Under the pieces are notes generated by a model. The model was not told the origin of the DNA. It saw only the letters and a program-made list of their open reading frames with translations, and searched no databases. This document shows positions 1-24,200 of a stretch of 64,000 nt of DNA, piece by piece. The DNA comes from Ascidiella aspersa. Taxonomy: Eukaryota. Position 1 is the first letter of the stretch. Each line of letters begins with the position of its first letter. Location: the NCBI GenBank assembly GCA_963924565.1, contig OZ004615.1:8184001-8248000 (forward strand), given 5' to 3'. A program made the position numbers and the translations under genes.

Positions 1-234
1 AAGGATTGGACGAATTGTAGCCGGCGGGTTGGTTAATGGAAACCTTCATATCTGGTTTTGTGCATGTAGCTTTCGTTTCTTGGTAACCGGAGCAGAGGTT
101 TTTAAGCTCTTTCATATCATTACTACACAAACATGTGTAGTTTTTGTGACATTTTGTCTCCTCCGCCAGGGTTAGATTCTCACCGGGATAAGTGCAGCTG
201 GGTTTGGTCTCGGCAGACATGGTTTTGTTGCACT
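1..234 (-). CDS. Repeat unit 5, exon A (partial)
   Basis: Acceptor tttag|AG TGC AAC AAA; ECNKTMSAETKPSC... as in the other units. Confidence 0.9.
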
Positions 235-3200
235 CTAAACAAATATGAATAAATTATGAAATGATAACAAATAATTTCAAAGCGCTTATTCAAATATAGG
301 GAAATATATTATCCACATGGGTAAACAAACTTCAAAAATACGTTTTTTTGGCATGATACTAATGACTATGGGTCTCCGATGCTTGTCATTTTATTTAGGA
401 TACCGATATGCGATATTTTACGCAAAAAGTATCGCGATTCTTCCCAAAACCAAATGACGACATTAGTAAGGTTAAAAAAGTAAAATACAAAACTTTAAAC
501 GTACAATGCTCTTATTGTCCATGTAATTTGCTCAAAATAAACTTTTGTCTTAAAATTTAGGTACCTCTAGCTGTTTAGCTAATATCTTTTGATAAGTGAT
601 TCTTTTAATGTAAAAAGCATTGCGTTGGATTTGAAATCAAAGCTGAAATCCACAAATTAAGTTAGTATTAGTTAGGCACCGATAACACCCGAGCATCGGA
701 CGAGCACCAATAATATCACTTGGCTTTTGGCATCAGGTCTTATCCGATATTTTCGGACATCATCCCTATTAATGAATTTAGAATCCTTACCGTACGAAAG
801 ATATGGCAGTATGGATCCACAATCGACGACTTACCACATGTGTATTTTTGGCAACAAGATGTTGGATCATCGACTTCGTATGCTAATTCGCCTTCTAAAA
901 CATTACATTTGCTTTCTTGGTATTCGTCCTTCGATTGGCACACTTCAGTGGTTTTGTTGATTTTATAACAACCAAGGTTCGATAGCCGTTCGCTTGTGCA
1001 AAAATTATCTACCTGGCAATTTCCGTCTTTGCTTGTCCAGCGTGAACCAGGCTGCAAACAATTAATTGCATTAAAACTTTTGGGTTTAATAACCTAAATA
1101 GCAATTATATCATTTAAACAGGTTTCAGAATGATTGATTAAAATGATCACTTACACTCTTCAGTTCTTTATCTGCTGTAATGCAATACCGACATTCAATA
1201 GTATAGTTGGAGCAACACGACGTCTGTCCAGTTTCCAGGTTTGGCTGAAACACTTTCTCGTGACCAAGAGGTATGTTGGTGGTGTTATCACTTCTAAGAC
1301 ACAGCTTGTTTAGTTCCGTTTCGTTCTTACACTTGCATTGGAAGGTTCGCGGACAGCATTTGTTGTCCGCCGTGGTCTCCACCTTGGCGTGATAGAAATT
1401 GTTTAGTTCGGATAATAAAAATTAACATAGCACGATATAAATAAACTGTTTAAACAACCACAAAGCAATACACAAACAGTGTAGTTTGTTGAACTGAGTC
1501 AAATTAAATAAACCATGAAAAATAGTAAAATGTTCGTGAAATATAGAATGGAATAGAATTTTCACAATTTAAGTGTTTAACTTACGGTGTCTTGATATAG
1601 CGAACAACTGTCAATGCCGTCCGTTTGATTGCAAGCGCTACGATTACAAATGCACTCTATTTTAGGACAGCATCCTTCATAAAATGTCTCGTTGACGACA
1701 TTTTTTGTATACCAAACTTGACTACAAGTGGATTGAGGAAATTCTGTTTCGCATTTCGAGGAGTCACATTCGCAAACTGTTGACTTGCATCCGCATTCTT
1801 TTGGATATTCATCACTGAAAAATTGTAACAAAATATGAAATTGTAGTTTAAGTTAATGATGAAAAGTACGATATACACTCATAACATTCCTAACTAAAAA
1901 CTTTTGCCAGGAAAGTTATACATTTTGAAACTCACTTGTCAATTACTTTTGGCGACCAAGACTGTTTATCACATGTTTGGTTGGTTTCTGGGCATGAGGG
2001 GCATACGCATTTGTACTGTGGACAACATTGGTCGTCTGGGTTGGTTCTTACACGGATCATGCCTTTCACTGAGCAATTGTAATTTGTCCTGTATAAAGAA
2101 ATTAGACGTTGATTAAATACGCTAGTCACTTACAAATTTTAAATAAAATTAGAATTTCGCCGCTAAATAAACCGATAAGCTTTCGCTAAGTTTTTAATAA
2201 TCTAAATACATTACACTGTATGAACCAAAATGTTTTTCAATGTAAAGCAATTAATTATCTAAGCGTTATTCTAAAGGAAAAATGTATAATTTACTTGTAC
2301 CAATAAATTCTCAAAATACTCACCAATAATCGCAATGCTTAGACAGCATTGTGTCATTATTACACACGCATTGGAAATCATCACAGCATTGACCCGGAGG
2401 TTTTTCCGTTTTAACCGCATGTTCTATGTTAGCTAAACAACTTTTCGTTTCGTACTCTTCTAAAGGTTGGCAATTATCTTCTGTGTCGTGGATGGTTTCG
2501 ATCGAATAGCAAGAAGTCACGTCATTGACGTCGGTTTTGATAGAGGAGCATGTCTTAGTTTCCATACATCCGTTTGATTTGGCTTCGGTAAACGTATCAC
2601 CTCTGGAAATAATGTGATTCGTGCTGTTTATACAACCATTGCATGCACAGGTCCAATTACTGCAACAATCCTCTTCATTTTTTACATCCACTTTGGAATA
2701 GCCCGTCTCGCAAGATTGATTTCCAACTTTGCACTCTTGGCACACACATTTGTACGAAGGACAGCAAGGATCGGAAGCATTGTAACCAGCAACCTTGTCG
2801 ACGACCACCTCCATATCTGGTTTAGTACATTTAGCTTTCGTTTCCTGGTAGTCGGAGCAAAGGTTTTTCAAATTCTCCATGTCGGTGCTACATGTGCAGT
2901 TGTACTGAGGATAGCAACTTGTTTCAATGTTGTATTCTTGGGCTTTTTCGCCTGGATGTAGGCATTTATAAGGGGGCGAAGTTCCGCTCGTGTTGCAAAC
3001 TGCGGAGGAAAATAACGAAAACAAAAATTAAATTTTAGCATTTTCATTATATATAAACCAATATATATCTAAAATGTAGTCGTAAGATTTGTTAAAACCA
3101 TTAAAATTACCCAGTAGATAAATAAGGTATATTCAACGTTTTACATAATTAAGAAAAATATTGTGAAACTAAAATGGATTAAAAAAATCACTTGAAACTA

Positions 3201-6200
3201 ATTAACTTACCACATCGATATGTCATGCAACATCCAACTCTTCCGTTTTCCACTGCAATTTCCCCTTCTTTAACGCAATTGTTATCCTGGAAACTCTGTA
3301 ATGTCGTGCAGGTTGTGTTTTCATTAAATATTGTCATTATCAGCCGACATGAGTCATCTGACGCGGAAACTCTGTTCTTTGAGCAAGTTTTCGACAAGTG
3401 ACATTGGTCGGATGTTTCATCATACACTGTTCCAATTGGAATGTAAGTTCCGTTTTCCATTTTGCAGCTGTTGCAAACGCACGTCCAACTAGAACAGCAA
3501 TCTCCTTCGGTCTTAAGATCCTTCTCTTCGTAACCTTCTATACACGTGATGTTCTTTTCAGCACAAGTATCGCAAACACATTGGTACGATGGGCAGCAAG
3601 GATTGGACGAATTGTAGCCGGCGGGTTGGTTAATGGAAACCTTCATATTTGGTTTTGTGCATGTAGCTTTCGTTTCTTGGTAACCGGAGCAGAGGTTTTC
3701 AAGCTCTTTCATATCATTACTACACAAACATGTGTAGTTTTTGTGACATTTTGTCTCCTCCGCCAGGGTTAGATTCTCACCGGGATAAGTGCAGCTGGGT
3801 TTGGTCTCGGCAGACATGGTTTTGTTGCACTCTAAACAAATATGAATAAATTATGAAATGATAACAAATAATTTCAAAGCGCTTATTCAGATATAGGGTA
3901 ATATATTAACCACATGGGTAAACAAACGTCAAAAATACGTTTTTTTGGCATGATACTAATGACTATGGGTCTCCGATGCTTATCATTTTATTTAGGATAC
4001 CGATATGCGATATTTTACGCAAAAAGTATCGCGATTCTTCCCAAAACCAAATGACGACATTAGTAAGTTCAAAAAAGTAAAATACAAAACTTTAAACGTA
4101 CAATGCTCTTATTGTCCATGTAATTTGCTTAAAATAAACTTTTGTCTTAAAATTTAGGTACCTCTAGCCGTTTACCTAATATTTTTTGATAAGTGATTCT
4201 TTTAATGTAAAAAGCATTGCGTTGGATTTGAAATCGAGGCTGTAATGCACAAATTAAGCTAGTATTAGTTAGGCACCGATAACACCCGAGCATCGGACGA
4301 GCACCAATAATATCACTTGGCTTTTGGTATTGGATCTTATCCGATATTTTCGGACATCATCCCTATTAATGAATTTAGAATCCTTACCGTACGAAAGACA
4401 TGGCAGTATGAATCCATAATCGACGACTTACCACATGTGTATTTTTGGCAACAAGATGTTGGATCATCGACTTCGTATGCTAATTCGCCTTCTAAAACAT
4501 TACAGTTGCTTTCTTGGTATTCGTCCTTCGATTGGCACACTTCAGTGGTTTTGTTGATTTTATAACAACCAAGGTTCGATAGCCGTTCGCTTGTGCAAAA
4601 ATTATCTACCTGGCAATTTCCGTCTTTGCTTGTCCATCGTGAACCAGGCTGCAAACAATTAATTGCATTAAAACTTTTGGGTTCAATAACCTAAATAGCA
4701 ATTATTTCATTTAAACAGGTTTCAGAATGATTGATTAAAAATGATTACTTACACTCTTCAGTTCTTTATCTGCTGTAATGCAATACCGACACTCAATAGT
4801 ATAGTTGGAGCAACACGACGTCTGTCCAGTTTCCAGGTTTGGCTGAAACACTTTCTCGTGACCAAGAGGTATGTTGGTGGTGTTATCACTTCTAAGACAC
4901 AGCTTGTTTAGTTCCGTTTCGTTCTTACACTTGCATTGGAAGGTTCGCGGACAGCATTTGTTGTCCGCCGTGGTCTCCACCTTGGCGTGATAGAAATTGT
5001 TTAGTTCGGATAATAAAAATTAACATAGCACGATATAAATAAACTGTTTAAACAACCACAAAGCAAAACACAAACAGTGTTGTTTGTTGAACTGAGTCAA
5101 ATTAAAATAAACCATGAAAAAAAGTAAAATGTTCGTGAAATATAGAATGGAATAGAATTTTCACAATTTAAGTGTTTAACTTACGGTGTCTTGATATAGC
5201 GAACAACTGTCAATGCCGTCCGTTTGATTGCAAGCGCTACGATTACAAATGCACTCTATTTTAGGACAGCATCCTTCATAAAATGTCTCGTTGACGACAT
5301 TTTTTGTATACCAAACTTGACTACAAGTGGATTGAGGAAATTCTGTTTCGCATTTCGAGGAGTCACATTCGCAAACTGTTGACTTGCATCCGCATTCTTT
5401 TGGATATTCATCACTGAAAAATTGTAACAAAATATGAAATTGTAGTTTAAGTTAATGATGAAAAGTACGATATACATTCATAAGATTCCTAACTAAAAAC
5501 TTTTGCCAGGAAAGTTATACATTTTGGAACTCACTTGTCAATTACTTTTGGCGACCAAGACTGTTTATCACATGTTTGGTTGGTTTCTGGGCATGAGGGG
5601 CATACGCATTTGTACTGTGGACAACATTGGTCGTCTGGGTTGGTTCTTACACGGATCATGCCTTTCACTGAGCAATTGTAATTTGTCCTGTATAAAGAAA
5701 TTAGATGTTGATTAAATACGCTAGTCACTTACAAATTTTAAATAAAATTAGAATTTCGCCGCTAAATAAACCGATAAGCTTTCGCTAAGTTTTTAATAAT
5801 CTAAATACATTACACTGTATAAACCAAAATGTTTTTCAATGTAAAGCAATTAATTATCTAAGCGTTATTCTAAAGGAAAAATGTATAATTTACTTGTACC
5901 AATAAATTCTCAAAATACTCACCAATAATCGCAATGCTTAGACAGCATTGTGTCATTATTACACACGCATTGGAAATCATCACAGCATTGACCCGGAGGT
6001 TTTTCCGTTTTAACCGCATGTTCTATGTTAGCTAAACAACTTTTCGTTTCGTACTCTTCTAAAGGTTGGCAATTATCTTCTGTGTCGTGGATGGTTTCGA
6101 TCGAATAGCAAGAAGTCACATCATTGACGTCGGTTTTGATAGAGGAGCATGTCTTAGTTTCCATACATCCGTTTGATTTGGCTTCGGTAAACGTATCACC

Positions 6201-9200
6201 TCTGGAAATAATGTGATTCGTGCTGTTTATACAACCATTGCATGCACAGGTCCAATTACTGCAACAATCCTCTTCATTTTTTACATCCACTTTGGAATAG
6301 CCCGTTTTGCAAGATTGATTTCCAACTTTGCACTCTTGGCACACACATTTGTACGAAGGACAGCAAGGATCGGAAGCATTGTAACCAGCAACCTTGTCGA
6401 CGACCACCTCCATATCTGGTTTAGTACATTTAGCTTTCGTTTCCTGGTAGTCGGAGCAAAGGTTTTTCAAATTCTCCATGTCGGTGCTACATGTGCAGTT
6501 GTACTGAGGATAGCAACTTGTTTCAATGTTGTATTCTTGGACTTCTTCGCCTGGATGTTGACATATACGAGGGGGCGAAGTTCCGCTCGTGTTGCAAACT
6601 GCGGAGGAAAATAACGAAAACAAAAATTAAATTTTAGCATTCTCATTTTATATAAACCAATATATATATAAAATGTATAGTCATAAGATTTGTTAAAACC
6701 ATTAAAATTACCCAGTAGATAAATAAGGTATATTCAACGTTTTACATAATTAAGAAAAATATTGTGAAACTAAAATGGATTAAAAAAATCACTTGAAACT
6801 AATTAACTTACCACATCGATATGTCATGCAACATCCAACTTTTCCTTTTTCAACTGCAATTTCCCCTTTTTTAATGCAATTTTTATCCTCGAAACTCTGT
6901 AATGTCGTGCAGGTTGTGTTTTCATTATATGTGGTCTCTATCAGCCGACATGAGTCAACTGACGCGGAAACTCTGTTCTTTGAGCAAGTTTTCGACAAGC
7001 GACATTGGTCGGATGTTTCATCATACACTGTTCCAATTGGAATGTAAGTTCCGTTTTCCATTTTGCAGCTGTTGCAAACGCACGTCCAATTAGAACAGCA
7101 ATCTCCTTCGGTCTTAAGATCCTTCTCTTCGTAACCTTCCATACACGTGATGTTCTTTTCAGCACAAGTATCGCAAACACATTGGTACGATGGGCAGCAA
7201 GGATTGGACGAATTGTAGCCGGCGGGTTGGTTAATGGAAACCTTCATATCTGGTTTTGTGCATGTAGCTTTCGTTTCTTGGTAACCGGAGCAGAGGTTTT
7301 CAAGCTCTTTCATATCATTACTACACAAACATGTGTAGTTTTTGTGACATTTTGTCTCCTCCGCCAGGGTTAGATTCTCACCGGGATAAGTGCAGCTGGG
7401 TTTGGTCTCGGCAGACATGGTTTTGTTGCACTCTAAACAAATATGAATAAATTATGAAATGATAACAAATAATTTCAAAGCGCTTATTCAAATATAGGGA
7501 AATATATTATCCACATGGGTAAACAAACGTCAAAAATACGTTTTTTTGGCATGATACTAATGACTATGGGTCTCCGATGCTTGTCATTTTATTTAGGATA
7601 CCGATATGCGATATTTTACGCAAAAAGTATCGCGATTCTTCCCAAAACCAAATGACGACATTAGTAAGTTCAAAAAAGTAAAATACAAAACTTTAAACGT
7701 ACAATGCTCTTATTGTCCATGTAATTTGCTCAAAATAAACTTTTGTCTTAAAATTTAGGTACCTCTAGCTGTTTAGCTAATATCTTTTGATAAGTGATTC
7801 TTTTAATGTAAAAAGCATTGCGTTGGATTTGAAATCAAAGCTGAAATGCACAAATTAAGTTAGTATTAGTTAGGCACCGATAACACCCGAGCATCGGACG
7901 AGCACCAATAATATCACTTGGCTTTTGGTATCAGGTCTTATCCGATATTTTCGGACATCATCCCTATTAATGAATTTAGAATCCTTACCGTACGAAAGAT
8001 ATGGCAGTATGGATCCACAATCGACGACTTACCACATGTGTATTTTTGGCAACAAGATGTTGGATCATCGACTTCGTATGCTAATTCGCCTTCTAAAACA
8101 TTACAGTTGCTTTCTTGGTATTCGTCCTTCGATTGGCACACTTCAGTGGTTTTGTTGATTTTATAACAACCAAGGTTCGATAGCCGTTCGCTTGTGCAAA
8201 AATTATCTACCTGGCAATTTCCGTCTTTGCTTGTCCAGCGTGAACCAGGCTGCAAACAATTAATTGCATTAAAACTTTTGGGTTTAATAACCTAAATAGC
8301 AATTATTTCATTTAAACAGGTTTCAGAATGATTGATTAAAAATGATCACTTACACTCTTCAGTTCTTTATCTGCTGTAATGCAATACCGACATTCAATAG
8401 TATAGTTGGAGCAACACGACGTCTGTCCAGTTTCCAGGTTTGGCTGAAACACTTTCTCGTGACCAAGAGGTATGTTGGTGGTGTTATCACTTCTAAGACA
8501 CAGCTTGTTTAGTTCCGTTTCGTTCTTACACTTGCATTGGAAGGTTCGCGGACAGCATTTGTTGTCTGCCGTGGTCTCCACCTTGGCGTGATAGAAATTG
8601 TTTAGTTCGGATAATAAAAATTAACATAGCACGATATAAATAAACTGTTTAAACAACCACAAAGCAAAACACAAACAGTGTTGTTTGTTGAATTGAGTCA
8701 AATTAAAATAAACCATGAAAAAAAGTAAAATGTTCGTGAAATATAGAATGGAATAGAATTTTCACAATTTAAGTGTTTAACTTACGGTGTCTTGATATAG
8801 CGAACAACTGTCAATGCCGTCCGTTTGATTGCAAGCGCTACGATTACAAATGCACTCTATTTTAGGACAGCATCCTTCATAAAATGTCTCGTTGACGACA
8901 TTTTTTGTATACCAAACTTGACTACAAGTGGATTGAGGAAATTCTGTTTCGCATTTCGAGGAGTCACATTCGCAAACTGTTGACTTGCATCCGCACTCTT
9001 CTGGATATTCCTCACTGAAAAATTGTAACAAAATATAAAATTATAGTTTAAGTTAATGATGAACAATACGATATACACTCATAAGATTCCTAACTAAAAA
9101 CTTTTGCCAGGAAAGTTATACATTTTGGAACTCACTTGTCAATTACTTTTGGCGACCAAGACTGTTTATCACATGTTTGGTTGGTTTCTGGGCATGAGCG

Positions 9201-12200
9201 GCATACGCATTTGTACTGTGGACAACATTGGTCGTCTGGGTTGGTTCTTACACGGATCATGCCTTTCCGTGAGCAATTGTAATTTGTCCTGTATAAAGAA
9301 ATTAAACGTTGAATAAATACACTGGTCACTTAAATTTTAAGTAAAATTAGGATTTCGCCGCTAAATAAACCGATAAGCTTTTGCTAAGTTTTTAATATTC
9401 TATATACATTACACTGTATAGACTAAAATGTGTTTTTTTTGTAAAGCAATTAGTTATCTAAGCGTTATTCTAATGGAATAATATACAATTTTCTTGTACC
9501 AATAAATTCTCAAAATACTTACCAATAATCACAATGCTTAGACAACATTGTGTCATTATTACACACGCATTGGAAATCATCACAGCATTGACCCGGAGGT
9601 TTTTCCGTTTTAACCGCATGTTCTATGTTAGCTAAACAACTTTTCGTTTCGTACTCTTTTAAAGGTTGGCAATTATCTTCTGTGTCGTGGGTGGTTTTGA
9701 TCGAATAGCAAGAAGTCACATCATTGACGTCGGTTTTGATAGAGGAGCATGTCTTAGTTTCCATACATCCGTTTGATTTGGCTTCGGTAAACGTATCACC
9801 TCTGGAAATAATGTGATTCGTGCTGTTTATACAACCATTGCATGCACAGGTCCAATTACTGCAACAATCCTCTTCATTTTTTACATCCACTTTGGAATAG
9901 CCCGTTTTGCAAGATTGATTTCCAACTTTGCACTCTTGGCACACACATTTGTACGAAGGACAGCAAGGATCGGAAGCATTGTAACCAGCAACCTTGTCGA
10001 CGACCACCTCCATATCTGGTTTAGTACATTTAGCTTTCGTTTCCTGGTAGTCGGAGCAAAGGTTTTTCAAATTCTCCATGTCGGTGCTACATGTGCAGTT
10101 GTACTGAGGATAGCAACTTGTTTCAATGTTGTATTCTTGGGCTTCTTCGCCTGGATGTGGGCATTCAAGAGGGGGCGAAGTTCCGCTCGTGTTGCAAACT
10201 GCGGAGGAAAATAACGAAAACAAAAATTAAATTTTAGCATTCTCATTATATATAAACCAATATATATCTAAAATGTAGTCGTAAGATTTGTTAAAACCAT
10301 TAAAATTACCCAGTAGATAAATAAGGTATATTCAACGTTTTACATAATTAAGAAAAATATTGTGAAACTAAAATGGATTAAAAAAATCACTTGAAACTAA
10401 TTAACTTACCACATCGATATGTCATGCAACATCCAACTCTTCCGTTTTCCACTGCAATTTCCCCTTCTTTAACGCAATTGTTTTCCTGGAAACTCTGTAA
10501 TGTCGTGCAGGTTGTGTTTTCATTATATGTGGTCATTATCAGCCGACATGAGTCAACTGACGCGGAAACTCTGTTCTTTGAGCAAGTTTTCGACAAGCGA
10601 CATTGGTCGGATGTTTCATCATACACTGTTCCAATTGGAATGTAAGTTCCGTTTTCCATTTTGCAGCTGTTGCAAACGCACGTCCAATTAGAACAGCAAT
10701 CTCCTTCGGTCTTAAGATCCTTCTCTTCGTAACCTTTTTTACACGTGATGTTCTTTTCAGCACAAGTATCGCAAACACACTGGTACGATGGGCAGCAAGG
10801 ATTGGACGAATTGTAGCCGGCGGGTTGGTTAATGGAAACCTTCATATCTGGTTTTGTGCATGTAGCTTTCGTTTCCTGGTAACCGGAGCAGAGGTTTTCA
10901 AGCTCTTTCATATCATTACTACACAAACATGAGTAGTTTTTGTGACATTTTGTCTCCTCCGCCAGGGTTAGATTCTCACCGGGATAAGTGCAGCTGGGTT
11001 TGGTCTCGGCAGACATGGTTTTGTTGCACTCTAAACAAATATGAATAAATTATGAAATGATAACAAATAATTGCAAAGCGCTTATTCAAATATAGGGAAA
11101 TATATTATCCACATGGGTAAACAAACGTCAAAAATACGTTTTTTTGGCATGATACTAATGACTATGGGTCTCCGATGCTTGTCATTTTATTTAGGATACC
11201 GATATGCGATATTTTACGCAAAAAGTATCGCGATTTTTCCCAAAACCAAATGACGACATTAGTAAGTTCAAAAAAGTAAAATACAAAACTTTAAACGTAC
11301 AATGCTCTTATTGTCCATGTAATTTGCTTAAAACAAAGTTTTGTCTTAAAATTTAGGTACCTCTAGCTGTTTACCTAATATTTTTTGATAAACGATTCTT
11401 TTAATGTAAAAAGCATTGCGTTGGATTTGAAATCGAGGCTGAAATGCACAAATTAAGTTAGTATTAGTTGGGCACCGATAACACCCGAGCATCGGACGAG
11501 CACCAAGAGTATCACTTGGCTTTTGATATCGGATCTTATCCGATATTTTCGGACTGAATCCCTATTAATGAATTTAGAATCCTTACCGTACGAAAGACAT
11601 GGCAGTATGGATCCATAATCGACGACTTACCACATGTGTATTTTTGGCAACAAGATGTTGGATCATCGACTTCGTATGCTAATTCGCCTTCTAAAACATT
11701 ACAGTTGCTTTCTTGGTATTCGTCCTTCGATTGGCACACTTCAGTGGTTTTGTTGATTTTATAACAACCAAGGTTCGATAGCCGTTCGCTTGTGCAAAAA
11801 TTATCTACCTGGCAATTTCCGTCTTTGCTTGTCCATCGTGAACCAGGCTGCAAACAATTAATTGCATTAAAACTTTTGGGTTCAATAACCTAAATAGCAA
11901 TTATTTCATTTAAACAGGTTTCAGAATGATTGATTAAAAATGATTACTTACACTCTTCAGTTCTTTATCTGCTGTAATGCAATACCGACACTCAATAGTA
12001 TAGTTGGAGCAACACGACGTCTGTCCAGTTTCCAGGTTTGGCTGAAACACTTTCTCGTGACCAAGAGGTATGTTGGTGGTGTTATCACTTCTAAGACACA
12101 GCTTGTTAAGTTCCGTTTCGTTTTTACACTTGCATTGGAAGGTTCGCGGACAGCATTTGTTGTCCGCCGTGGTCTCCACCTTGGCGTGATAGAAATTGTT

Positions 12201-15200
12201 TAGTTCGGATAATAAAAATTAACATAGCACGATATAAATAAACTGTTTAAACAACCACAAAGCAAAACACAAACAGTGTTGTTTGTTGAATTGAGTCAAA
12301 TTAAAATAAACCATGAAAAAAAGTAAAATGTTCGTGAAATATAGAATGGAATAGAATTTTCACAATTTAAGTGTTTAACTTACGGTGTCTTGATATAGCG
12401 AACAACTGTCAATGCCGTCCGTTTGATTGCAAGCGCTACGATTACAAATGCACTCTATTTTAGGACAGCATCCTTCATAAAATGTCTCGTTGACGACATT
12501 TTTTGTATACCAAACTTGACTACAAGTGGATTGAGGAAATTCTGTTTCGCATTTCGAGGAGTCACATTCGCAAACTGTTGACTTGCATCCGCATTCTTTT
12601 GGATATTCATCACTGAAAAATTGTAACAAAATATGAAATTGTAGTTTAAGTTAATGATGAAAAGTACGATATACACTCATAAGATTCCTAACTAAAAACT
12701 TTTGCCAGGAAATTTATACATTTTGGAACTCACTTGTCAATTACTTTTGGCGACCAAGACTGTTTATCACATGTTTGGTTGGTTTCTGGGCATGAGGGGC
12801 ATACGCATTTGTACTGTGGACAACATTGGTCGTCTGGGTTAGTTCTTACACGGATCATGCCTTTCACTGAGCAATTGTAATTTGTCCTGTATAAAGAAAT
12901 TAGATGTTGATTAAATACGCTAGTCACTTACAAATTTTAAATAAAATTAGGATTTCGCCGCTAAATAAACCGATAAGCTTTCGCTAAGTTTTTAATAATA
13001 TACATTACACTGTATAAACCAAGATGTTTTTTTATGTAAAGCAATTAATTATCTAAGCGTTATTCTAAAGGAAAAATGTATAATTTACTTGTACCAATAA
13101 ATTCTCAAAATACTCACCAATAATCGCAATGCTTAGACAGCATTGTGTCATTATTACACACGCATTGGAAATCATCACAGCATTGACCCGGAGGTTTTTC
13201 CGTTTTAACCGCATGTTCTATGTTAGCTAAACAACTTTTCGTTTCGTACTCTTCTAAAGGTTGGCAATTATCTTCTGTGTCATGGATGGTTTCGATCGAA
13301 TAGCAAGAAGTCACATCGTTGACGTCGGTTTTGATAGAGGAGCATGTCTTAGTTTCCATACATCCGTTTGATTTGGCTTCGGTAAACGTATCACCTCTGG
13401 AAATAATGTGATTCGTGCTGTTTATACAACCATTGCATGCACATGTCCAATTACTGCAACAATCCTCTTCATTTTTTACATCCACTTTGGAATAGCCCGT
13501 TTTGCAAGATTGATTTCCAACTTTGCACTCTTGGCACACACATTTGTACGAAGGACAGCAAGGATCGGAAGCATTGTAACCAGCAACCTTGTCGACGACC
13601 ACCTCCATATCTGATTTAGTACATTTAGCTTTCGTTTCCTGGTAGTCGGAGCAAAGGTTTTTCAAATTCTCCATGTCGGTGCTACATGTGCAGTTGTACT
13701 GAGGATAGCAACTTGTTTCAATGTTGTATTCTTGGGCTTCTTCGCCTGGATGTGGGCATTCAAGAGGGGGCGAAGTTCCGCTCGTGTTGCAAACTGCGGA
13801 GGAAAATAACGAAAACAAAAATTAAATTTTAGCATTCTCATTTTATATAAACCAATATATATATAAAATGTATAGTCATAAGATTTGTTAAAACCATTAA
13901 AATTACCCAGTAGATAAATAAGGTATATTCAACGTTTTACATAATTAAGAAAAATATTGTGAAACTAAAATGGATTAAAAAAATCACTTGAAACTAATTC
14001 ACTTACCACATCGATATGTCATGCAACATCCAACTTTTCCTTTTTCAACTGCAATTTCCCCTTTTTTAATGCAATTTTTATCCTCGAAACTCTGTAATGT
14101 CGTGCAGGTTGTGTTTTCATTATATGTGGTCTTTATCAGCCGACATGAGTCAACTGACGCGGAAACTCTGTTCTTTGAGCAAGTTTTCGACAAGCGACAT
14201 TGGTCGGATGTTTCATCATACACTGTTCCAATTGGAATGTAAGTTCCGTTTTCCATTTTGCAGCTGTTGCAAACGCACGTCCAATTAGAACAGCAATCTC
14301 CTTCGGTCTTAAGATCCTTCTCTTCGTAACCTTCCATACACGTGATGTTCTTTTCAGCACAAGTATCGCAAACACATTGGTACGATGGGCAGCAAGGATT
14401 GGACGAATTGTAGCCGGCGGGTTGGTTAATGGAAACCTTCATATCTGGTTTTGTGCATTTTGCTTTCGTTTCGTGGTATCCCGGACAATCCTTTTCCAAC
14501 TTCGTCATATTGGTTCCGCATATGCAGTTGAAGGTAGAGTAACAATCAGATTCACTCCTTGATTCATTCACTTCTTGTCCTGGGTAATTACAGTTTGGCT
14601 CCTTCGGATTTGGTGATTCATTGCATGCTGGCGAAAATAAGACAAGTTTTTATGTGAAATAAAACAACACTGAATTATTTTATTGGTTGTCGTCAACGAG
14701 ACATTTTATGAAGGATACTGTATTAAAATAGAGTGCATTTGTAATCGTAGCGCTTGTAATCAAACGGACGGCATTGACAAGACGAACCAAAATGCCTTGA
14801 TTTTTTACTGGATCAAAATTTATGAAATATTACGCCTTTATGCTAAATGAATTATAATGGGAATTGGAAATTTATTGGATGGAACAAACTGAGAAACTGC
14901 GCTTGTGAACAACGCATGCGGACTGTACTTTTTTCAAAAAAGTTTTGGTTGCCCTAAAGCAGGGGTCGGCAACCTGCGGCCCGCCAATGTAATTTTTCCG
15001 GCCCGTCGCTTCTTCGGCACGAGTCCAAGTGCATAAAAATTTCGCGCTTTTTCATCTTTCTACGTCCGGTTACGTTTGAAGCTGTCATTTGAACTAGATC
15101 ATCGCTTTTTTCCGTTGCCGGTATACTAAAAAACGCTCGTTCGCTCGCCAGGTGTGCCCTAACTTTAAAAGGTTGAAAAACACTGCACTAGGTTAACATT

Positions 15201-18200
15201 TAAACTCAACGCATTTCCTAAAGCAGTTTTATTACACTTTTCATTAGCAGTATGGATGTCTCGTGCGGACTCGAATTTTAAACCAAACAATCACTTTTTT
15301 TCGCGCTTTGCGCCAATACTTTACTGCCTCCCTAATTGCGCGGCCCGCAGAGACCAGTCTGGGTTTGGTTTTGGCCCGCGATTATAAAAAGGTTGCCGAA
15401 CCCTAACCTAAAGTAAAAATTTTGTGGTCTATGGGACGATACATCCTTTTAAAACAGTCATTGAACATGTCTTGATGTGCTTTGTCGAATACCAAATGAC
15501 GTGATAAACTGTTTCAAACGTACAGCGCAACACACGTAAGCCGACACGTAGGCCTAACAGCACTTACAGCAGGTGTAGTTTTTGCAACACGGGTTCGTCG
15601 AAAGCACCTCGGTCGCGTGCTGGTCATTGTTGCAGTTATAATCCTCTTCGGCTTTGCAGTTGTACTGCGTGTCGTTCTGGCCGGGACAGACGCACTGTTT
15701 TGTCGGACAGCAGTTGCTTTCTGTTCCCGGGACGACACTCAACACTTTAGGAGGTTTACAATCGGGATCTGCCGAACAGCTGCAGCCTGTAAATGAGTAT
15801 GGTTGGACGTTATGCATTTGGCTACTATTGTCGGAACCACCCTTGTTCGTAAGTCGGCCTTATATTATTAGAGCGAGAAGTTCAAATTTTCCAATTTCGA
15901 AGCATGGAAGAGTCGAATTGCCATATTTTTAAAAAACTGGAATTATTGAAAAATTATTTCTACTTTGGCCTGATTAAGCACGCTAGTCAAGATATTCACG
16001 GAAACGACATTAAGAACAACTCGAATCGCGCGAAGCGATCTTATCAGCAAATATATATCGTTCTGGAAAACGCGATATCACATAATGCGTATAGTTCAAG
16101 TATAATGGCATGAGACAAAAACTCACAATCGGTCTTTATGCACTCGGTGGATTCGGAATGGCGGAGAACGTATCCTTCCTTGCAGAAGCAGCCACTGACT
16201 TGTTTGGTACTTTGGCAGGTCCTATCTAAAGTCTCATAATTGCCACACGTCTTTGTCACCTGACACTGACTGGCACAGGCTGTGTATTGCGTGTTAGCTG
16301 CGGAACACGTTGGCTCTAGAAAATTAGCAGGGATATATATTGTTGAGCATTTGATTTTGCGCCTTATTTAAAATAATTCAAAACCACCAAGAATTATAGT
16401 GGTAAATTTTTACTTTTGCTCACTTGTCACAAGAATAATACATTACACATGTTGTTTTTTTTGAGAAACAAATTTCACATAGGTTTACTTTATATATAGT
16501 TTAACAGTATTTACAAAAATAAAATCAATTGAATCTTGTATTATATACTATATATTCACTTACACGTACTACAAATATAATGTTAAAATAACGATCACAT
16601 ATAGGAAACCCTAACAAAATAAAATCTAATACACAAATAAAACAAACATTTTTTTTATTTTTTTTTTTTATCCTGAACAATAAGAGAATATTTTAAAAGT
16701 TGTGAATCAAGCTTACCCGAGCAGTTGGCTGCCTTCCTCCAATCGACGCAAATTCCGTTCATCTCACATAGTTCTGCATAGCTTGAAGCAGCGCTGGAGT
16801 TGCATATGCTGCACTACAATAAAAATAAAAGTGTTAAATACTACTGGAATTGGTGACGTCAAGAAAGTTAATAACATTTTGGTCGGATATATACGTAATA
16901 AGAATATCAACGCCCATACAGAAGTAGGTATCATTTTGGACGTTTCGAATAACTCTTTATTCATTTTCAACATCTGATGTTGAAAATGAATAAAGAGTTA
17001 TTCGAAACGTCCAAAATGATACCTACTTCTGTATGGGCTTTGATATTCTTATTACGTGTTACAACAACCTCCAACCATTATGCTCCAAGGTCGGATATAT
17101 GTTTAACTAATTGCTCGTTAAAACACTCGGGCTCATTTTTTCCTAAATAATGATGAAGGTAAATAGCGATTTGCATTCGAGTACAATTTTGTTGATGTTA
17201 CGTAGCTTTATATAATTTTTTGCTATATTAGGCATAATATTAATTGTCTTTGATCACACAAAACCACCAAAACTGCCCTTCGGAACGTTATTTAAACGTA
17301 GAATTTTTTCACAGAATAACTAAATTCATAAAAAACTCAAAACAATCTGATGTTCTCACTAAAAATGGAATGTTGAAGGGGGAAACTGTAATGTGACCTA
17401 GAAGCTACGCCGAGTGAAAACTTTTTTTCATTAACCCGCCTTATAAACATGATTATAAACTCTTTCAAAGATATATATATAGGCCTATATATGTGAGTAT
17501 TTTTATAAAATTGTCAGCTCTCCGGTTGGCCTTTTATTATTTTCGTTGTTGTTTTATCAGCTTAATGGTTATACCCAGAATGCGATTCAGAATCTCCGCT
17601 ATTTTATTCTTGCAACAACAAAAGATATTTGACAGTTCAGAGATTAATCAATTAACAAGTAAACCTTATAGGCAAAATAGGAGCATGTAAGGTAATGGCA
17701 GCTCTTAAAGAGTCATTTTTTGTTCTTGGTTGATTTGTTTCTAGGTATAGTAAACGTTATTATTTTTAATTTTTCAAAGACGGAAAACATTCGCTTGCAG
17801 CATAAAAAAATGCCTTTATAGTTTAAGTTGCCCAAAGGTACAGCAAATAAGGACTAAACCGATTTCAACAAAATTGGCTATGGTAAAGTACAAACATAGC
17901 GGTAATCCGCGCAAAGGCAAGTTGTTTTGCATTTACAAAGTTAAAATGGGCAAAAAGCACGGTTTGGGGGCAGGGGGCATGGTCACTCTTCAGAATTTTA
18001 TCTTTTAACCAAGAAAAACGCCGTGTTGGGTCGCAAACCGTAGGTAAAATTTCTATATCGTCGGGCATTAAATCGGCACCGATGAAAACCACGTCATACC
18101 AGACGAGTACCGATATAACCTCCCAGTATGGGGACTTTGATGATATTATCATCAACATATAGCAAAAGACGAGTAACACTGCAATAACGCGCGTGTCGGA

Positions 18201-21200
18201 TACCGTCGCCAAACCAAAACCACCGGTTATTCTGAATGGGGGTCTTCTTAAGACTAACCACTTTCGTCCTGTTGGCGTCGAAAATGCAATTGTCCCGGTG
18301 ATCTTTGGCGGTGCTGATTGTCTGGCACTTTTCGAACAGAGACGACGTGAGCAGATCGCACACATCCTCTTCACAAGTCTGGTTTCCGCAGACGGACGGC
18401 AGCGGTGTGACACCTTCCCCGATCAACCTTCCAAAGTATAAAGGTTTGCCGTAAGTGCTTGATTGGTCCTTGCCGTCGTATTTCGTTTGAAATCGTGAAA
18501 GTTGGTCGCGCTGGCGACGAGTAGAAAACGTTACGAATCAGGATGTAAAATATTTTATTGTAGAACAGCAAAACAGGATATGGGTTTCTTTATTGGGGAG
18601 GCCACGAATCGAATACCGTCGTTATCAAATACTCGACCGAGTCAAGTAATTTATCGGTTCAGACGTTAGTTAAGCAAATAGTTGTGTACGTTTTGAATAT
18701 TACACTTTTTAGCCAAGGTGTGCGTAAAGGTAGACACTCATTTTTATCACAAGGAAGGTATGCCCCATGGAAAAGAAAACATTGAACGATCTAAATCTCT
18801 GTTCTTCTTTTTACTTGGCGTGTAAAATAGTAACATTATCATTCAATGTAATTTGTTAAACGTGGTCAATATCACTGGGTTATCAGTAAACCAAAAATCG
18901 CGATAAGCATTCCTCTCGAAGTAGAGTATTACGAGAATTTGCCCATCCCAAATATTTATTTACCAACCAACTTAATTAGAAATATATAAGGCCACTGACG
19001 TATATTTTCTTAAAAATTAAATAAATGTAATAATTTAACAACATTGGAATAATATCGGGGGAAACTTTTTTATAAAAGGGCGGCCTACGTGTTTTCTTCA
19101 ATTCCCCAAATGGACGACGAACATTTCTGTATTTATTATACAGCAATCTACCTTCTTAGGTTATAGTTAGCAATAATCCTGTGATGCCTAGTAACGAAAG
19201 CAGTCTACAGTTCGGCAATTATTTAAAAAAAAACATGGTTGAGCTAAAGAAGGCCACGATTAAAGCAAATTGAAAGAGAAACTTTTATCCTACGCTGCGC
19301 AGTCGGTGACGTTCGGCTTTTTGCATTCGTTGATTCTCCAACTGTGTCCGAAGTCATTCACGTCGTCAATGATCGTCTTATTGCTGCCCTCGAAGTCGTC
19401 TTGCTTGTCGGCGGAGCAGGTACCTGGGCAAACCGCGCTTGTTGTTTTTAAACGACAGTGTGTATTTGCAAGGTCAGAACTTATCAATTTTCAATTTTGC
19501 TTTCTCGGCGAAATTTTATTAAAGTACCGACGTTTCGACAACCTATTAGCGCAATCTTCGGGGCGAGAAATACGAGATAAACAGTTCACAACCAAAAAAC
19601 AGCCTGCGCGAAAAACGAGGCTTTTCGTTTTGTGTTTCTCGCCTTTTGGTGTAGTACGTTGTCCATCGATTTTTCCTCTTTCATTGTTTGTCTGGTATAT
19701 ATGCATTTTTTCGCCTATAGTTTCAATAACATTAGCCCGAAGAAGATTGCCCGAATTGGTGGTCGAAAGGTTGGTGCATCAATAAATCTTGCCGGATGAA
19801 TAATTTTACAATTGAAACAATGCCTGCCACCCACAATATTTTCCTTCGTGGGAATTTATGTTGAAAAACGCACACTTTCACTTATCCAAAAGCGATAAAA
19901 ATATAATATGAAAGAATTGTCCCAGAATAATTGTCAAAGTAACAATTTAAAAAGGGTTCTAACCCAATTTCAAGTTATAGAGTTGTGTCTAACTCCAAGT
20001 GATGTCCTCTCATTACAAACATGAAGTCGCGGTCTCAAGTCTCAATAATTAAGCTCAGTGAAAGACACACACAAACAAATGTGTTTAATAACATTTGTGA
20101 TCTAGCCCCTCGGAAGTTGCTTTATGACCAACGATTACGGCTTCCGTATCAATAGTACACCGAAAAGCCATCGCAGACTCGCCGAATCTGTCGATCTATG
20201 ATGCAAGCAGAGCAAGCCAGAAAAACAACTGGCCTGCAGTGAGGTTCGAACTCACGACCTCCGGTCAAGCCGGGACCGTCGCTCTACCAACTGAGCTATG
20301 CAGGCTCAGAGAGGAGCGAGTCGAGAAACAACCATGCGCCAATACTTGCACATTTTGTTAGTACAAGCAACTTCACACTGGGGGATCATCAGTCCGTATC
20401 AATCAATGAAAGACACACACAAACATATGTGTTTAATAACATCTGTAATGTGCAAGTATTGGCGCATGGTTGTTTCTCGACTCGCTCCTCTCTGAGCCTG
20501 CATAGCTCAGTTGGTAGAGCGACGGTCCCGGCTTGACCGGAGGTCGTGAGTTCGAACCTCACTTCAGGCCAGTTGTTTTTCTGGCTTGCTCTGCTTGCAT
20601 CATAGATCGACAGATTCGGCGAGTCTGCGATGGCTTTTCGGTGTACTAATTAAGCTCAGCTGTCATTATTACATATCAAAAATGTTGAACTGGGTGGTCA
20701 ACAAACCAAGTTAAAGGTTTTGAAATTTACGTCTCATGAGAATACAAATGTATTTTTACAAAAACTTAAACTGTTTCAGTATGTAATGGTCTAAAATCGG
20801 GTAGCGGCGACACTTATCTATAAAGGGGCTCCAACATAACGATTGGAACAAGAAAATTGTGCGAAGGTGGTAACCATTCTTAATCTGTTTAAACTTACCG
20901 CAGAGGCCGACTGTTTTATTAAACATGGTCGAGACTGGTATCATAATGACGACGAAGGGGGAGGTGGCGAGGGTGACGTAAAACAGGTTCAGGTTGATTT
21001 CGGGAATACGCAGGTTGACCTTGCTATCGGCCATCGATATTGTCATTCCTGCCCCAGACCACATAAGCGTAACACTGCTGCCGTTTACGAAAACCTGCGA
21101 CAAAAATATTCTTTAGATTAGATGAGCGCTTTCTTGTCAGCCCGAAATTGCTTTAAATGAAAGGACAACTTGGTTTAAGTGTCGAACTAAACGCCGGTTG

Positions 21201-24200
21201 CCTAGCCTTCAAAACAAATTGGAAAACAATGTATTAAATATCTGCAAACGTGTTTCGCCATTCACCGAATTAGACAGGGAGATGCCGTCAGCTTGATACA
21301 ACTCGACTGTTGTATAGTCCCATCGGACAAACACCTTCTTCAGGCAAGTGAGCGGTCCGCTTGGTGAGGTGGAACACACTTCGTTTTCGCTAAACAAAGC
21401 AAATGTCATTAATTGCCTGGTTCGCAGTAGTTCGTCGTTATAACTGGCCATGTTTCATTTTCTTTTAGATGCATTTGCCTTATTCCCTTGTTATGAGTAG
21501 CAACAAAATTGACCTCTTTTTTATTTAGTCATCGCAAGTTTGCGGTGTTGACTTAGTATTTGAGGTGCTCAGCAGTAATTATAAAAGTCTGCACCAATTA
21601 ACAGCGACATCTTGATTGCCCATTTTTAGAGGAGACTGCAATTAGTTTTGATGTTTTAACATGAGCAGGGGGTGAGTAGAAGAATGCCATTGCAAGATTG
21701 GTGCCATATAGTTTTAAACATAACCTAGGATAAAAAAAGTAATTTTTAGAAACACCATACCTGTAGATATGGAGGCGAGATGGTGCAGTTCGGTAGGTGA
21801 CGAGAGTGTACTGACATTGACCCATGAAGCTATATGGCCTGCTATCGAAAGTCATGTAATGGGGGTCTCCATAAGCAACACAAGCACCTGCGAATACACA
21901 AATCACGTGAGCATGTGAAAATCGCTTGGTATCTGATGACAAGAAAGTGTTAAACAGAGGTCCGTTGTAAACTAATAATCTCGAACTGAGGTTTTGGCAA
22001 TTTGACTGGTCCCTGCATTATTCGAAGGAAACAAAAGATGTAACAAAGTTAACCTGTTTAAACATTACTGCTGTAATAAGAGCGTTTTACTTTTTTGTCC
22101 CCCCAAAAAAGTTATATAACCTAATGAATAAATTGTTGTCGACCCCACTTTGCGATCAGGTGATATAATTTATCAACCAAGAACTTTACGTATAGCAATG
22201 AGCTTATTGTTGAGTATATCAACTCACATTGGCATTCCACGTTGGGGCAGCAAGGGTCGTCGGGGTTGGGGATATCAACTCGGCTCTGTCCTATCGCGCA
22301 GGTCTTCTGTGAGTTTGTGCAGTACTTGGGGTGCTCGACAATCTCGCAATCGCCGTCGCAAGAGCATTGACAGCTCTTGGTCATGCAAGTGCCCGCTTTC
22401 CATGTCGAGCCGGCCTGTGCGCAAGCGAAACAACTTCGGTTTATTATGTCCCGGTTTCCCGCTTTGTCACGAACGTTCGCTCCAGCACGCAAAATACAAC
22501 AAAATGGACGGATCAACGCGACGGCGGAGGGGGATGTTTCATGGCTACCATCAACCCGAAAGGCAATCGTGTGGAAAACGATTTATACTTAATAGGATAA
22601 AACTATAGAGAGCTTGGTGTAATACAGTATCCATTTGCCGTGTCGCACAATAAGGGCAATCATTGAAAAACAGTTAATCTAAAGCCACCTTTGAACGTTT
22701 TAGTGCGAATTTCGCAGACTTGTTTTTGCTATTTCCAGCAAAAATAATTGAGGGTTTGGCGATTCATTTTTAGCACAATTTAACTCTTCTGACTATAGCT
22801 AAATATCGAACTAAATAATCGTAAATTATAAGTAACCTATCCCCAGTCCTAGCTGACGGGTTTACAGCTAAAGCATATGACTGTGTCTCCTATAGTTTAA
22901 GGCAGTCAATACATTCTGCACCAATTACAGATACTTTTATCATTTCGTCAAGGGCATAAAATATGTTTAACTATTGAATGTACAACACAATATAACCATA
23001 TAGGGCTGTTATGCATTAGCATTTTATGGCAACGTGTTCTGCACATGTTAATGTCACTCAAAATTGATATCCGATAGTTGGTTTTGGAAGTATAAGTAGA
23101 TTGTAGACATCAGATGGAATAAAGGTGGAGCCGTTTATCTTATTATTTTAGGATTGATTTAATACAAACAAAAAGAGAACTAAAAACATACAGCGCTGCG
23201 TTAGTTTAGCGTTGTTCTTTACCGAATAGCTTTGGCCCTGGTCGTAACAGTCCGATACACAGCAAGTTGCGTTGCAACACGGCGTACTACTTTTCGTGTT
23301 CGGTAGGCTGGTTTGGCCGGTGGCGCAGACCTCTTTTGTGCAAACGCTATCGTCTTGGTATAACTTCACCAGCGGACAGCCGCTTTCTTGCTCGAGACAT
23401 ATCTGTAACAAAATTAGCTCTCACAGTTACGTTTTTAATCAAAAGTAACCGTTATTGTAAACGGGTGGCAACAACACAAATTGCCGTTGCAAAATTATTT
23501 TTGTTACTAGTTTGACATATGTCTTACATACATGTGTTGCAGTATCGTAGCATGACGTATTTAGTCGGTAAAATGTTTACTGGTAAAACAACTGTTTGTT
23601 AAATGCTGAAAATATATAACAGGAAAACACCCAGGTAAAGCAATATGCTACTTTACTGGCTTGTTGTAAATATTTTTTTAGACTTAAACTAATTTAAAAA
23701 ATAAGGCAAAAAAATGAATGCAACACAAGTTTTGGTAAAACGCGATAAACCTGGGTAACGCATTCAGAACTCTTCCAAGTTTCGTTGATCGCTCTCAAAT
23801 TTTCTTCTGCGTCAAGGCACTTTGTACAAACGCACGTTCGGTTTGCGCAGCAGGGATTAAGCATACCGTCCTGAAGTAATGTGAAATAAAACAGTTTGTA
23901 AGCTAGTTAGTTGTAAATAAGGCAGGGTTGCAACGTTAATGACAATTTGAATTTAAATTTACAATTGTGAAAACGTAAATATTTTCAGTGCGCAGTGAAA
24001 CATCAGAGATTTTTAATTCGGTAATTTAATTGTGCGCATGTGCTTCATAGGTAAATTTAGCTAATCGTGTTTTTTTTTTCTAAACCAAAGTGGTCCATAA
24101 AAAGCACCTATATATTTCTCTGATTGAATTTCTTAGTTGTGAACAATGTTTACCTGCGAAAGCTCGACTTGGCGCGACTTATCTGTAATGCATTGCCCGG

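What the first reader, a model, noticed from the sequence alone, without database searches (positions are those of the whole stretch)
14688..14779. Single antisense copy of repeat exon D just upstream of the array: possible docking site
A 92-nt, 4-mismatch reverse complement of exon D lies 60 nt upstream of the first array acceptor. In the pre-mRNA it could pair with exon D of any unit, giving mutually exclusive duplexes reminiscent of Dscam docking/selector pairing. The upstream exon (15568) ends in phase 1, like the acceptors of exons A and B, so looping out whole units would stay in frame and could tune polymer length. The simpler alternative is a neutral templated insertion from break repair, possibly linked to the array's origin.
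Basis: partly seen in the sequence, partly recalled or inferred. Interest (0 to 1): 0.7.

Follow-up and report, generated by a model that had tools for sequence, protein, structure and literature searches.

The report
Backwards exon fragment in mucin intron
A 92-base backwards copy of part of one exon sits in an intron of a mucin-like gene just before a five-copy exon array; it is likely a harmless DNA-repair scar, since most of the shortcut splices it was proposed to direct would create stop codons.

Summary
Observation confirmed. Window 14688-14779 is an 88/92 reverse complement of the middle of exon D, 60 nt before the first array acceptor, and the only non-exonic match found in the genome. 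The Dscam-like reading fails. The upstream exon ends in T and all 5 later A exons begin AG, so those joints make a TAG stop; joints to C, D, E and F also hit stops. A duplex with exon D loops out A-C and leaves E next, which is out of frame. One of 4 differences keeps pairing (32% expected by chance) and none is compensated. RNA contigs show the unit's exons joined in order, with no skip or back-splice joint listed. Best reading: a young templated insertion from replication or break repair, complementary to five sites only because exon D is arrayed. Open point: the RNA contigs have a hole over the A1-only segment, and U1 to B is in frame, so A1 skipping is not excluded. The scan has noted similar inverted exon copies in other genomes (unchecked AI notes).

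The parts
14688..14779 (+). Inverted 92-nt copy of the middle of exon D (reads in exon sense on +, so it is antisense in the pre-mRNA). Differs from exon D at 14717, 14722, 14723, 14757.
12407..12498 (-). Donor or partner arm in exon D of unit 1 (nearest copy, 2.19 kb away)
8809..8900 (-). Same arm in exon D of unit 2 (identical to unit 1)
5208..5299 (-). Same arm in exon D of unit 3 (identical)
1609..1700 (-). Same arm in exon D of unit 4 (identical); a fifth copy lies left of the window at C9:8182011-8182102
15568..15786 (-). Upstream exon U1, 219 nt, ends in phase 1 with T
   Evidence: splice sites and open frame; its joint was not seen in RNA
14007..14627 (-). Exon A1, 621 nt, phase 1-1; its first ~146 nt (14482-14627) are unique to A1, the rest is array sequence
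   Evidence: donor joint A to B seen in RNA contigs
13118..13793 (-). Exon B1, 676 nt, phase 1-2, paralogue of A
12734..12886 (-). Exon C1, 153 nt, phase 2-2
12384..12612 (-). Exon D1, 229 nt, phase 2-0
11952..12179 (-). Exon E1, 228 nt, phase 0-0
11631..11847 (-). Exon F1, 217 nt, phase 0-1
10410..11030 (-). Exon A2, 621 nt, begins AG, so a joint from U1 reads TAG
   Evidence: F to A joint in RNA contigs
1..14481 (-). Tandem array of ~3.6-kb units (2124 coding nt, 708 codons each); 5 units, running on to window-equivalent -3733; borders inside exon A
   Evidence: depth ratio 4.6 in raw DNA reads

Best explanation
The element is a 92-nt inverted copy of exon D coding sequence in the intron before exon A1, likely pasted by a template switch during replication or break repair and likely decaying without function. 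Shown: the copy, its uniqueness, intact donors, no target-site duplication or poly(A), four uncompensated changes, and stop codons in all shortcut joints from U1 except those to B. Inferred: the nearest exon D in cis was the template (a cDNA patch from this well-expressed gene is also possible); the changes arose in the insert; complementarity to five sites follows simply from exon D being in a homogenised array that likely grew by unequal crossing-over between paralogous A exons. A duplex is predicted (-155 kcal/mol) but likely forms late, after about 2.2 kb more transcription, and changes the mRNA little.
For: Single non-exonic copy with unique flanks. No target-site duplication found. Read in the donor frame, the changes turn GCCPK into GYCIK, while the paralogous gene's D exon keeps CCP, so they are on the insert side. 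One of 4 keeps pairing as G-U, against 32% expected; none is compensated; all 4 are GC to AT. Joints from U1: TAG at 5 of 5 later A exons, TGA at 5 of 5 C exons, early stops at D, E and F. RNA contigs of run X3 show 5 canonical joints at similar depth (3212-4724), exon D joined on both sides, and 0 other letters on a piece covering 69 of the 92 arm positions. The paralogous gene has no antisense copy of its D exon within 25 kb upstream (49 of 50 shuffles score as high). The locus holds other recent copies, such as a 7.7-kb piece at 99.84%, and the gene's introns hold other long near-perfect inverted repeats (202 nt at 100%, 82 nt at 99%).
Against: Such copies are not common here: none other was confirmed in 1.09 Mb sampled (58 local pair rows, 11 inspected, 4 searched genome-wide, 4 of 4 were dispersed repeats). 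The arm is identical in 5 of 5 units and lies in the array's longest invariant run (229 columns), although 337 of 2033 exon windows of 92 nt are also invariant. The position, 60 nt before an acceptor, is one where a duplex could matter. The insert is in more than one haplotype-like contig and no empty allele was seen. No joint from U1 was observed in any RNA run. Contigs drop rare isoforms.
Confidence: 0.78

Rival explanations
1. An accidental insertion with a real side effect on RNA processing: the duplex with exon D weakens the A1 acceptor (A1 skipped, U1 to B1, in frame, 207 residues shorter), or promotes back-splicing from a C donor to the A1 acceptor (circles of 1450 nt plus multiples of 2124), or attracts A-to-I editing.
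For: Predicted duplex of -155 kcal/mol. U1 to B is open at 5 of 5 B acceptors. The arms bracket A1-B-C as reverse complementary matches bracket circularised and skipped exons (PMC8330042, passages). The duplex ends 61 nt before the acceptor, about 30 nt from a branch-point-like TTCAC (motif recalled).
Against: No back-splice or skip joint among the 9 joint rows. T>C places in the RNA contigs (12) do not exceed those in DNA contigs (13). The loop would take out A, B and C together, not A1 alone. A1 has an intact frame, all cysteines and an ordinary acceptor, and the paralogous gene has the same exon order. The downstream arm is coding, not intronic.
Confidence: 0.15
2. A Dscam-like docking site: it pairs with exon D of one unit at a time, loops out the units before it and sets the number of repeats in the protein.
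For: One element is complementary to five competing sites downstream, the layout that duplication of one arm of a stem is proposed to create (PMC6071210). U1 to B joints are in frame.
Against: The partners are inside a coding exon. The exon after the pairing (E) is out of frame with U1. U1 to A2-A6 reads TAG. Reaching the next B needs three unlooped exons skipped. No compensation, no counterpart in the paralogue, and exon D is joined to C and E as deeply as the other joints.
Confidence: 0.03
3. The insert is a breakpoint scar of the very event that made the array (a replication-based complex rearrangement with a templated insertion).
For: It lies about 207 bp from the array's 5' border and is copied from inside the unit. 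Its divergence (4.3%, 95% CI 1.2-10.8) overlaps that of unit introns (mean 3.07% pairwise).
Against: Both array borders fall inside paralogous A exons that share a 224-bp tract, which fits unequal crossing-over; the insert is not at the junction. Gene conversion blurs unit ages.
Confidence: 0.12
4. Assembly artefact (a chimeric read or misjoin at the edge of a repeat).
For: It sits beside a collapsible array; the runs that cross the junctions are one study and may include the source sample.
Against: It has 4 differences from all five exon D copies; contigs of three runs, one of them RNA, cross the right junction and one crosses the left.
Confidence: 0.01

Closest known systems
Class 2 templated sequence insertions (TSI/TSIP; PMC5110952, abstract and passages read)
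   Same: Short copy of genomic sequence, donor intact, no target-site duplication, no poly(A) tail; thought to be a patch at a double-strand break.
   Different: The donor is local (2.2 kb) and inverted rather than distant; junction microhomology and polymorphism could not be read without an empty allele.
Template-switch mutations: four-point model and FoSTeS/MMBIR (PMC5453318, passages read)
   Same: [quoted passage not shown]
   Different: The four-point model covers short-range switches; a 2.2-kb jump falls under FoSTeS/MMBIR, which that paper names but does not model.
Dscam1 exon 6 docking site and selector sequences; duplication model for competing structures (PMC6071210, parts 1 and 3 of 5 read; PMC1431710, abstract read)
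   Same: One upstream intronic element is complementary to one site per duplicated unit, so only one pairing can form at a time.
   Different: There the selectors are conserved intronic elements and the exon directly after the pairing is included in frame. Here the partners are inside a coding exon, the next exon is out of frame, units are six-exon blocks joined in series, and no conservation or compensation is seen.
Reverse complementary matches that promote back-splicing and exon skipping (PMC8330042, passages read)
   Same: Complementary arms bracket a block of exons, with the upstream arm close to an acceptor.
   Different: The downstream arm is exonic; skipping of the bracketed A-B-C block frameshifts; no circle or skip joint was seen.
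Gel-forming mucin / von Willebrand factor superfamily, e.g. Ci-GFM1 (PMC6109156, passages read)
   Same: Host gene has VWD and TIL domains and matches FCGBP, VWF, MUC5B, MUC5AC and MUC2.
   Different: It carries a long cysteine-rich repeat region (90 Cys and 24 N-glycosylation sequons per 707 codons) with no Pfam match above cut-off and only unnamed homologues; orthology to Ci-GFM1 was not tested.

Membership tests
Dscam-type docking site / selector system | One docking element complementary to several competing sites, one per duplicated unit | tested here: met
   five identical partner arms
Dscam-type docking site / selector system | Selectors lie in introns upstream of the alternative exons | tested here: not met
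   Partner arms are inside coding exon D; feature from PMC6071210 and PMC1431710
Dscam-type docking site / selector system | The exon directly after the pairing joins the upstream constitutive exon in frame | tested here: not met
   U1 to E stops 18 codons after the joint; U1 to A2-A6 reads TAG, 5 of 5
Dscam-type docking site / selector system | Mutually exclusive or alternative use of the units in mRNA | tested here: inconclusive
   RNA contigs show only in-order joints, but the five units collapse on one another, rare forms are dropped and no U1 joint was seen
Dscam-type docking site / selector system | Compensatory changes that keep the pairing | tested here: not met
   0 of 4 changes compensated, 1 of 4 G-U against 32% expected; only four sites, so low power; no counterpart in the paralogue
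Dscam-type docking site / selector system | Conservation across species | not testable with these tools
   No related genome is held; runs under other labels did not cover the site
Class 2 templated sequence insertion | Copy of genomic sequence with the donor left intact | tested here: met
Class 2 templated sequence insertion | No target-site duplication, no poly(A) tract, not part of a mobile element | tested here: met
   no duplication of 2-15 nt found; flanks match once
Class 2 templated sequence insertion | Microhomology, microdeletion or added bases at the junctions | tested here: inconclusive
   Only 3-6 nt shared words at the junctions; needs the empty allele
Class 2 templated sequence insertion | Presence/absence polymorphism | tested here: inconclusive
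   No empty-site joint listed; run X9 depth 1.9 on the insert bin against 3.7 on both flanks, about 2-3 reads
circRNA-promoting reverse complementary match | Complementary arms in the introns flanking the circularised exons | tested here: not met
   Upstream arm intronic, downstream arm inside exon D
circRNA-promoting reverse complementary match | Back-splice junction in RNA | tested here: inconclusive
   None among 9 joint rows; library type not on record, contigs drop rare forms, and the A1 5' part has no coverage in that run
Gel-forming mucin / VWF superfamily (host gene) | VWD and TIL domains | tested here: met
   PF00094 40.9 bits, PF01826 30.6 bits, both above cut-off; PDB matches
Gel-forming mucin / VWF superfamily (host gene) | C-terminal cystine knot and a PTS domain | not tested
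   The 3' end of the gene was not annotated

The most novel reading that the evidence does not exclude
A competing-RNA-structure switch caught at birth: one repair accident gave a mucin pre-mRNA an antisense arm that pairs with five coding exons, and it already shifts splicing so that exon A1 is skipped in frame (U1 joined to B) or A1-B-C circles are made, which would explain the hole over the A1-only segment in the RNA contigs.
Probability: 0.1. Interest if true: 0.65.

Novelty: new member of a known kind. Interest (0 to 1): 0.2.

Why it matters
If neutral, it is an ordinary repair scar, and a clear case of how a one-to-many 'docking' layout arises for free once one arm sits in a tandem array, so such layouts alone do not show regulation. 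If it does shift splicing, it would be a young, testable example of the proposed route from partial duplication to competing RNA structures, in a gene where isoform length can be read directly.

Tried and rejected
Whole-unit skipping through A acceptors: rejected, TAG at 5 of 5. The acceptor pattern also caught 5 AG sites 112 nt inside A2-A6; these are out of frame and were set aside. Skipping of exon D alone: frameshift. Capture by a transposon: flanks match once in the genome. Flanks as further templated pieces: 0 of 6 flank tests beat shuffles. Antisense copies of other array exons upstream: none, 5 of 5 tests at shuffle level. Base rate of such copies: 1.09 Mb sampled, one 200-kb block was almost all repeat; 7 of 11 inspected pairs were not searched genome-wide. 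First read-laying run (14) was swamped by two abundant repeats; 599 joints were hidden, and raw RNA run X10 had about 1x depth and none on U1. One search listed no holder on record as RNA; X3 is read as RNA from its exon-only depth and splice joints. The hole in X3 over 14482-14627 is not counted as evidence: the tool filters records and says a hole proves nothing. The first unit alignment mixed A and B anchors and was redone. Protein searches with B, a VWD exon and U1 found nothing at E 0.001 among longer proteins; the Atlas gave no answer. Paper searches for a described case of an inverted exon fragment that causes skipping gave nothing relevant, nor did those for 'doublets' or tandem exon arrays; this does not show that none is in print. 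No supplements were read.

Full report
Setting. The window is C9:8184001-8248000 of a 308.6-Mb, 75-contig genome. The minus strand carries a large spliced gene with VWD and TIL domains whose VWD exon matches FCGBP, VWF and MUC2/5AC/5B chains, so it belongs to the mucin/VWF superfamily. Its cysteine-rich middle holds a tandem array of five ~3.6-kb units, 97-98% alike including introns, from 14481 to window-equivalent -3733. Each unit has six exons (A-F; 2124 nt, 708 codons). Both borders lie inside exon A, and the first and last A exons share a 224-bp tract, which suggests unequal crossing-over between paralogous exons (inferred). Raw DNA reads of run X9 give an array-to-unique depth ratio of 4.6, so the array is real.

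The observation. 14688-14779 is the reverse complement of the middle of exon D at 88/92, 60 nt before the A1 acceptor. A genome search gave 6 matches: the site and five exon D copies. Both flanks match once. Contigs cross the right junction in runs X1, X2 and X3 and the left junction in X2. These three runs are one study and may include the source sample, so they rule out an assembly error better than they show spread in the population. The X2 piece on the left has 3 other letters and one unlaid end letter at 14717, so it is probably another haplotype that differs at the first of the four sites (inferred from piece ends). Run X9, from another study, has depth 1.9 on the insert bin and 3.7 on both flanks, and no empty-site joint is listed; that is 2-3 reads and decides nothing.

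Test of the docking idea by reading frame. U1 ends with a phase-1 T. A1 begins CA (TCA, Ser), but A2-A6 begin AG, so each joint from U1 reads TAG (5 of 5). C exons give TGA (5 of 5). Joints to D, E and F of unit 1 stop at codons 124, 90 and 87, with U1 ending at codon 72. Only A1 and the B exons (TTT, 5 of 5) are open. A duplex closed on exon D of unit n loops out everything from A1 to C of that unit, and the next free acceptor is E. To reach an open acceptor, E, F and the next A would also have to be skipped. In the Dscam model the selectors are intronic and the exon right after the pairing is activated (PMC6071210, parts 1 and 3 of 5 read; PMC1431710, abstract read). That is not the layout here.

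Test by sequence change. The four differences turn GCCPK into GYCIK, plus one silent change, when read in the donor frame. A paralogous gene 60-90 kb from the insert has the same exon order in one copy and keeps CCP, so the changes are on the insert's side. One keeps pairing as G-U and three break it; 32% would keep it by chance, using the array's own substitution spectrum. All four are GC to AT (chance about 0.06). Four sites give little power, but there is no sign of selection for pairing. The paralogue has no antisense copy of its D exon within 25 kb upstream or 7 kb downstream, while the same test finds the insert at once. Against neutrality, the arm is identical in all five units and sits in the longest invariant run of the array (229 columns); yet 337 of 2033 exon windows of that length are invariant too. 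The insert's divergence (4.3%, CI 1.2-10.8) overlaps the mean intron divergence among units (3.07%), so the order of insertion and expansion cannot be told.

Test by RNA. Run X3 behaves as RNA: depth in the thousands on exons, 0-60 on most intron stretches, and GT-AG joints. Five joints are listed (A-B 3936, C-D 3930, D-E 4357, E-F 3212, F-A 4724) and B-C shows as a loose end. The joint table has 9 rows for four runs, none hidden, and none is a skip or a back-splice. A piece over 12430-12612 of exon D, covering 69 of the 92 arm positions, has no other letters at depth 3930, and T>C places number 12 in X3 against 13 in DNA contigs X2, so there is no majority editing. Limits: the units collapse on one another, contigs drop rare forms, U1 lay outside this stretch, and 21 loose-end rows were hidden. 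X3 has no depth over the A1-only segment (14482-14627). The tool filters records and warns that a hole proves nothing. Skipping of A1 (U1 to B1, in frame) would give the same picture, so this stays open. Raw RNA run X10 was too thin (about 1x, none on U1), though its strand fits a minus-strand transcript.

Origin. No target-site duplication or poly(A) is present, and only 3-6 nt words are shared at the junctions. This fits class 2 templated insertions (PMC5110952, abstract and passages) and reverse-complement template switches (PMC5453318, passages). 'Doublets', short paired duplications in mammals, are a similar class; that paper was not held and is recalled only. The insert is about 207 bp outside the array border, so it need not come from the same event. 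The locus is prone to copying: 17286-24971 recurs at 99.84% some 75 kb downstream. Unique-sequence copies of this kind are not common in this genome: none other was confirmed in 1.09 Mb (58 pair rows, 11 inspected, 4 searched, all 4 dispersed repeats). Long inverted repeats in this pre-mRNA are common, however (6 pairs of 40 nt or more in 14628-64000). The one-to-five complementarity needs no selection; it is what duplication of one arm gives (model in PMC6071210).

What the duplex might still do. It is predicted at -155 kcal/mol (perfect copy -174). The geometry suits back-splicing from a C donor to the A1 acceptor better than docking; reverse complementary matches promote both circles and skipping in C. 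elegans (PMC8330042, passages). I give 0.15 to a measurable side effect of any kind, and 0.03 to Dscam-like length control.

Earlier notes of this scan list several inverted exon copies in introns of other genomes, mostly read as copying scars. These are unchecked AI notes and are not used as support; two of them led me to papers that I then read. Nothing was noted near this place or by sequence.

Verdict. A real, uncommon but known kind of feature: a young inverted templated copy of coding sequence, most likely neutral (0.78). One cheap test, counting reads that leave the U1 donor, would close the remaining question. Interest 0.2.

Noticed in passing
window 17286-24971 and G000:C9:8125701-8133386: A 7.7-kb piece of the mucin-like gene, with several exons of a VWD region, is copied at 99.84% identity into a different tandem array of 14-15 kb units about 75 kb downstream.
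   Followed up: partly
window 1-14481 and beyond the left end: Five-unit, six-exon array in a mucin/VWF-like gene, with borders inside paralogous A exons. Depth ratios differ between runs (4.6 in raw reads X9, about 3.2 in contigs X1), a weak hint of copy-number variation; 39 codons vary with an amino-acid change and 26 silently.
   Followed up: partly
G000:C9 about 8259000-8289500 (window-equivalent 75000-105500; L011-L013), minus strand: Paralogous cysteine-rich gene region with the same exon order (A/B-C-D-E-F-A) in a single copy, 25-45% protein identity.
   Followed up: partly
window 20153-20648: Head-to-head pair of a repeat that ARAGORN calls tRNA-Ala(GGC): 202-nt arms, 100% complementary, 92 nt apart. 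The repeat occurs at many loci as tandem 348-bp units of near-identical sequence, some ending in the same inverted pair.
   Followed up: partly
window 16893-17057: Near-perfect 165-nt palindrome (82-nt arms) from a very abundant repeat; about 1000 times unique depth in DNA reads.
   Followed up: no
window about 14958-15404: Abundant repeat with terminal inverted ends (MITE-like; label from recall) in the same intron as the insert, 180 bp from it.
   Followed up: no
window 14482-14627: No depth in RNA contigs of run X3 over the A1-only segment, while the shared part of exon A is at about 3500; filter artefact or A1 skipping, unresolved.
   Followed up: partly
G000:C7 about 14164800-14171100 (L106-L107): A 190-bp tandem array that switches orientation in the middle, forming two inverted halves.
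   Followed up: no
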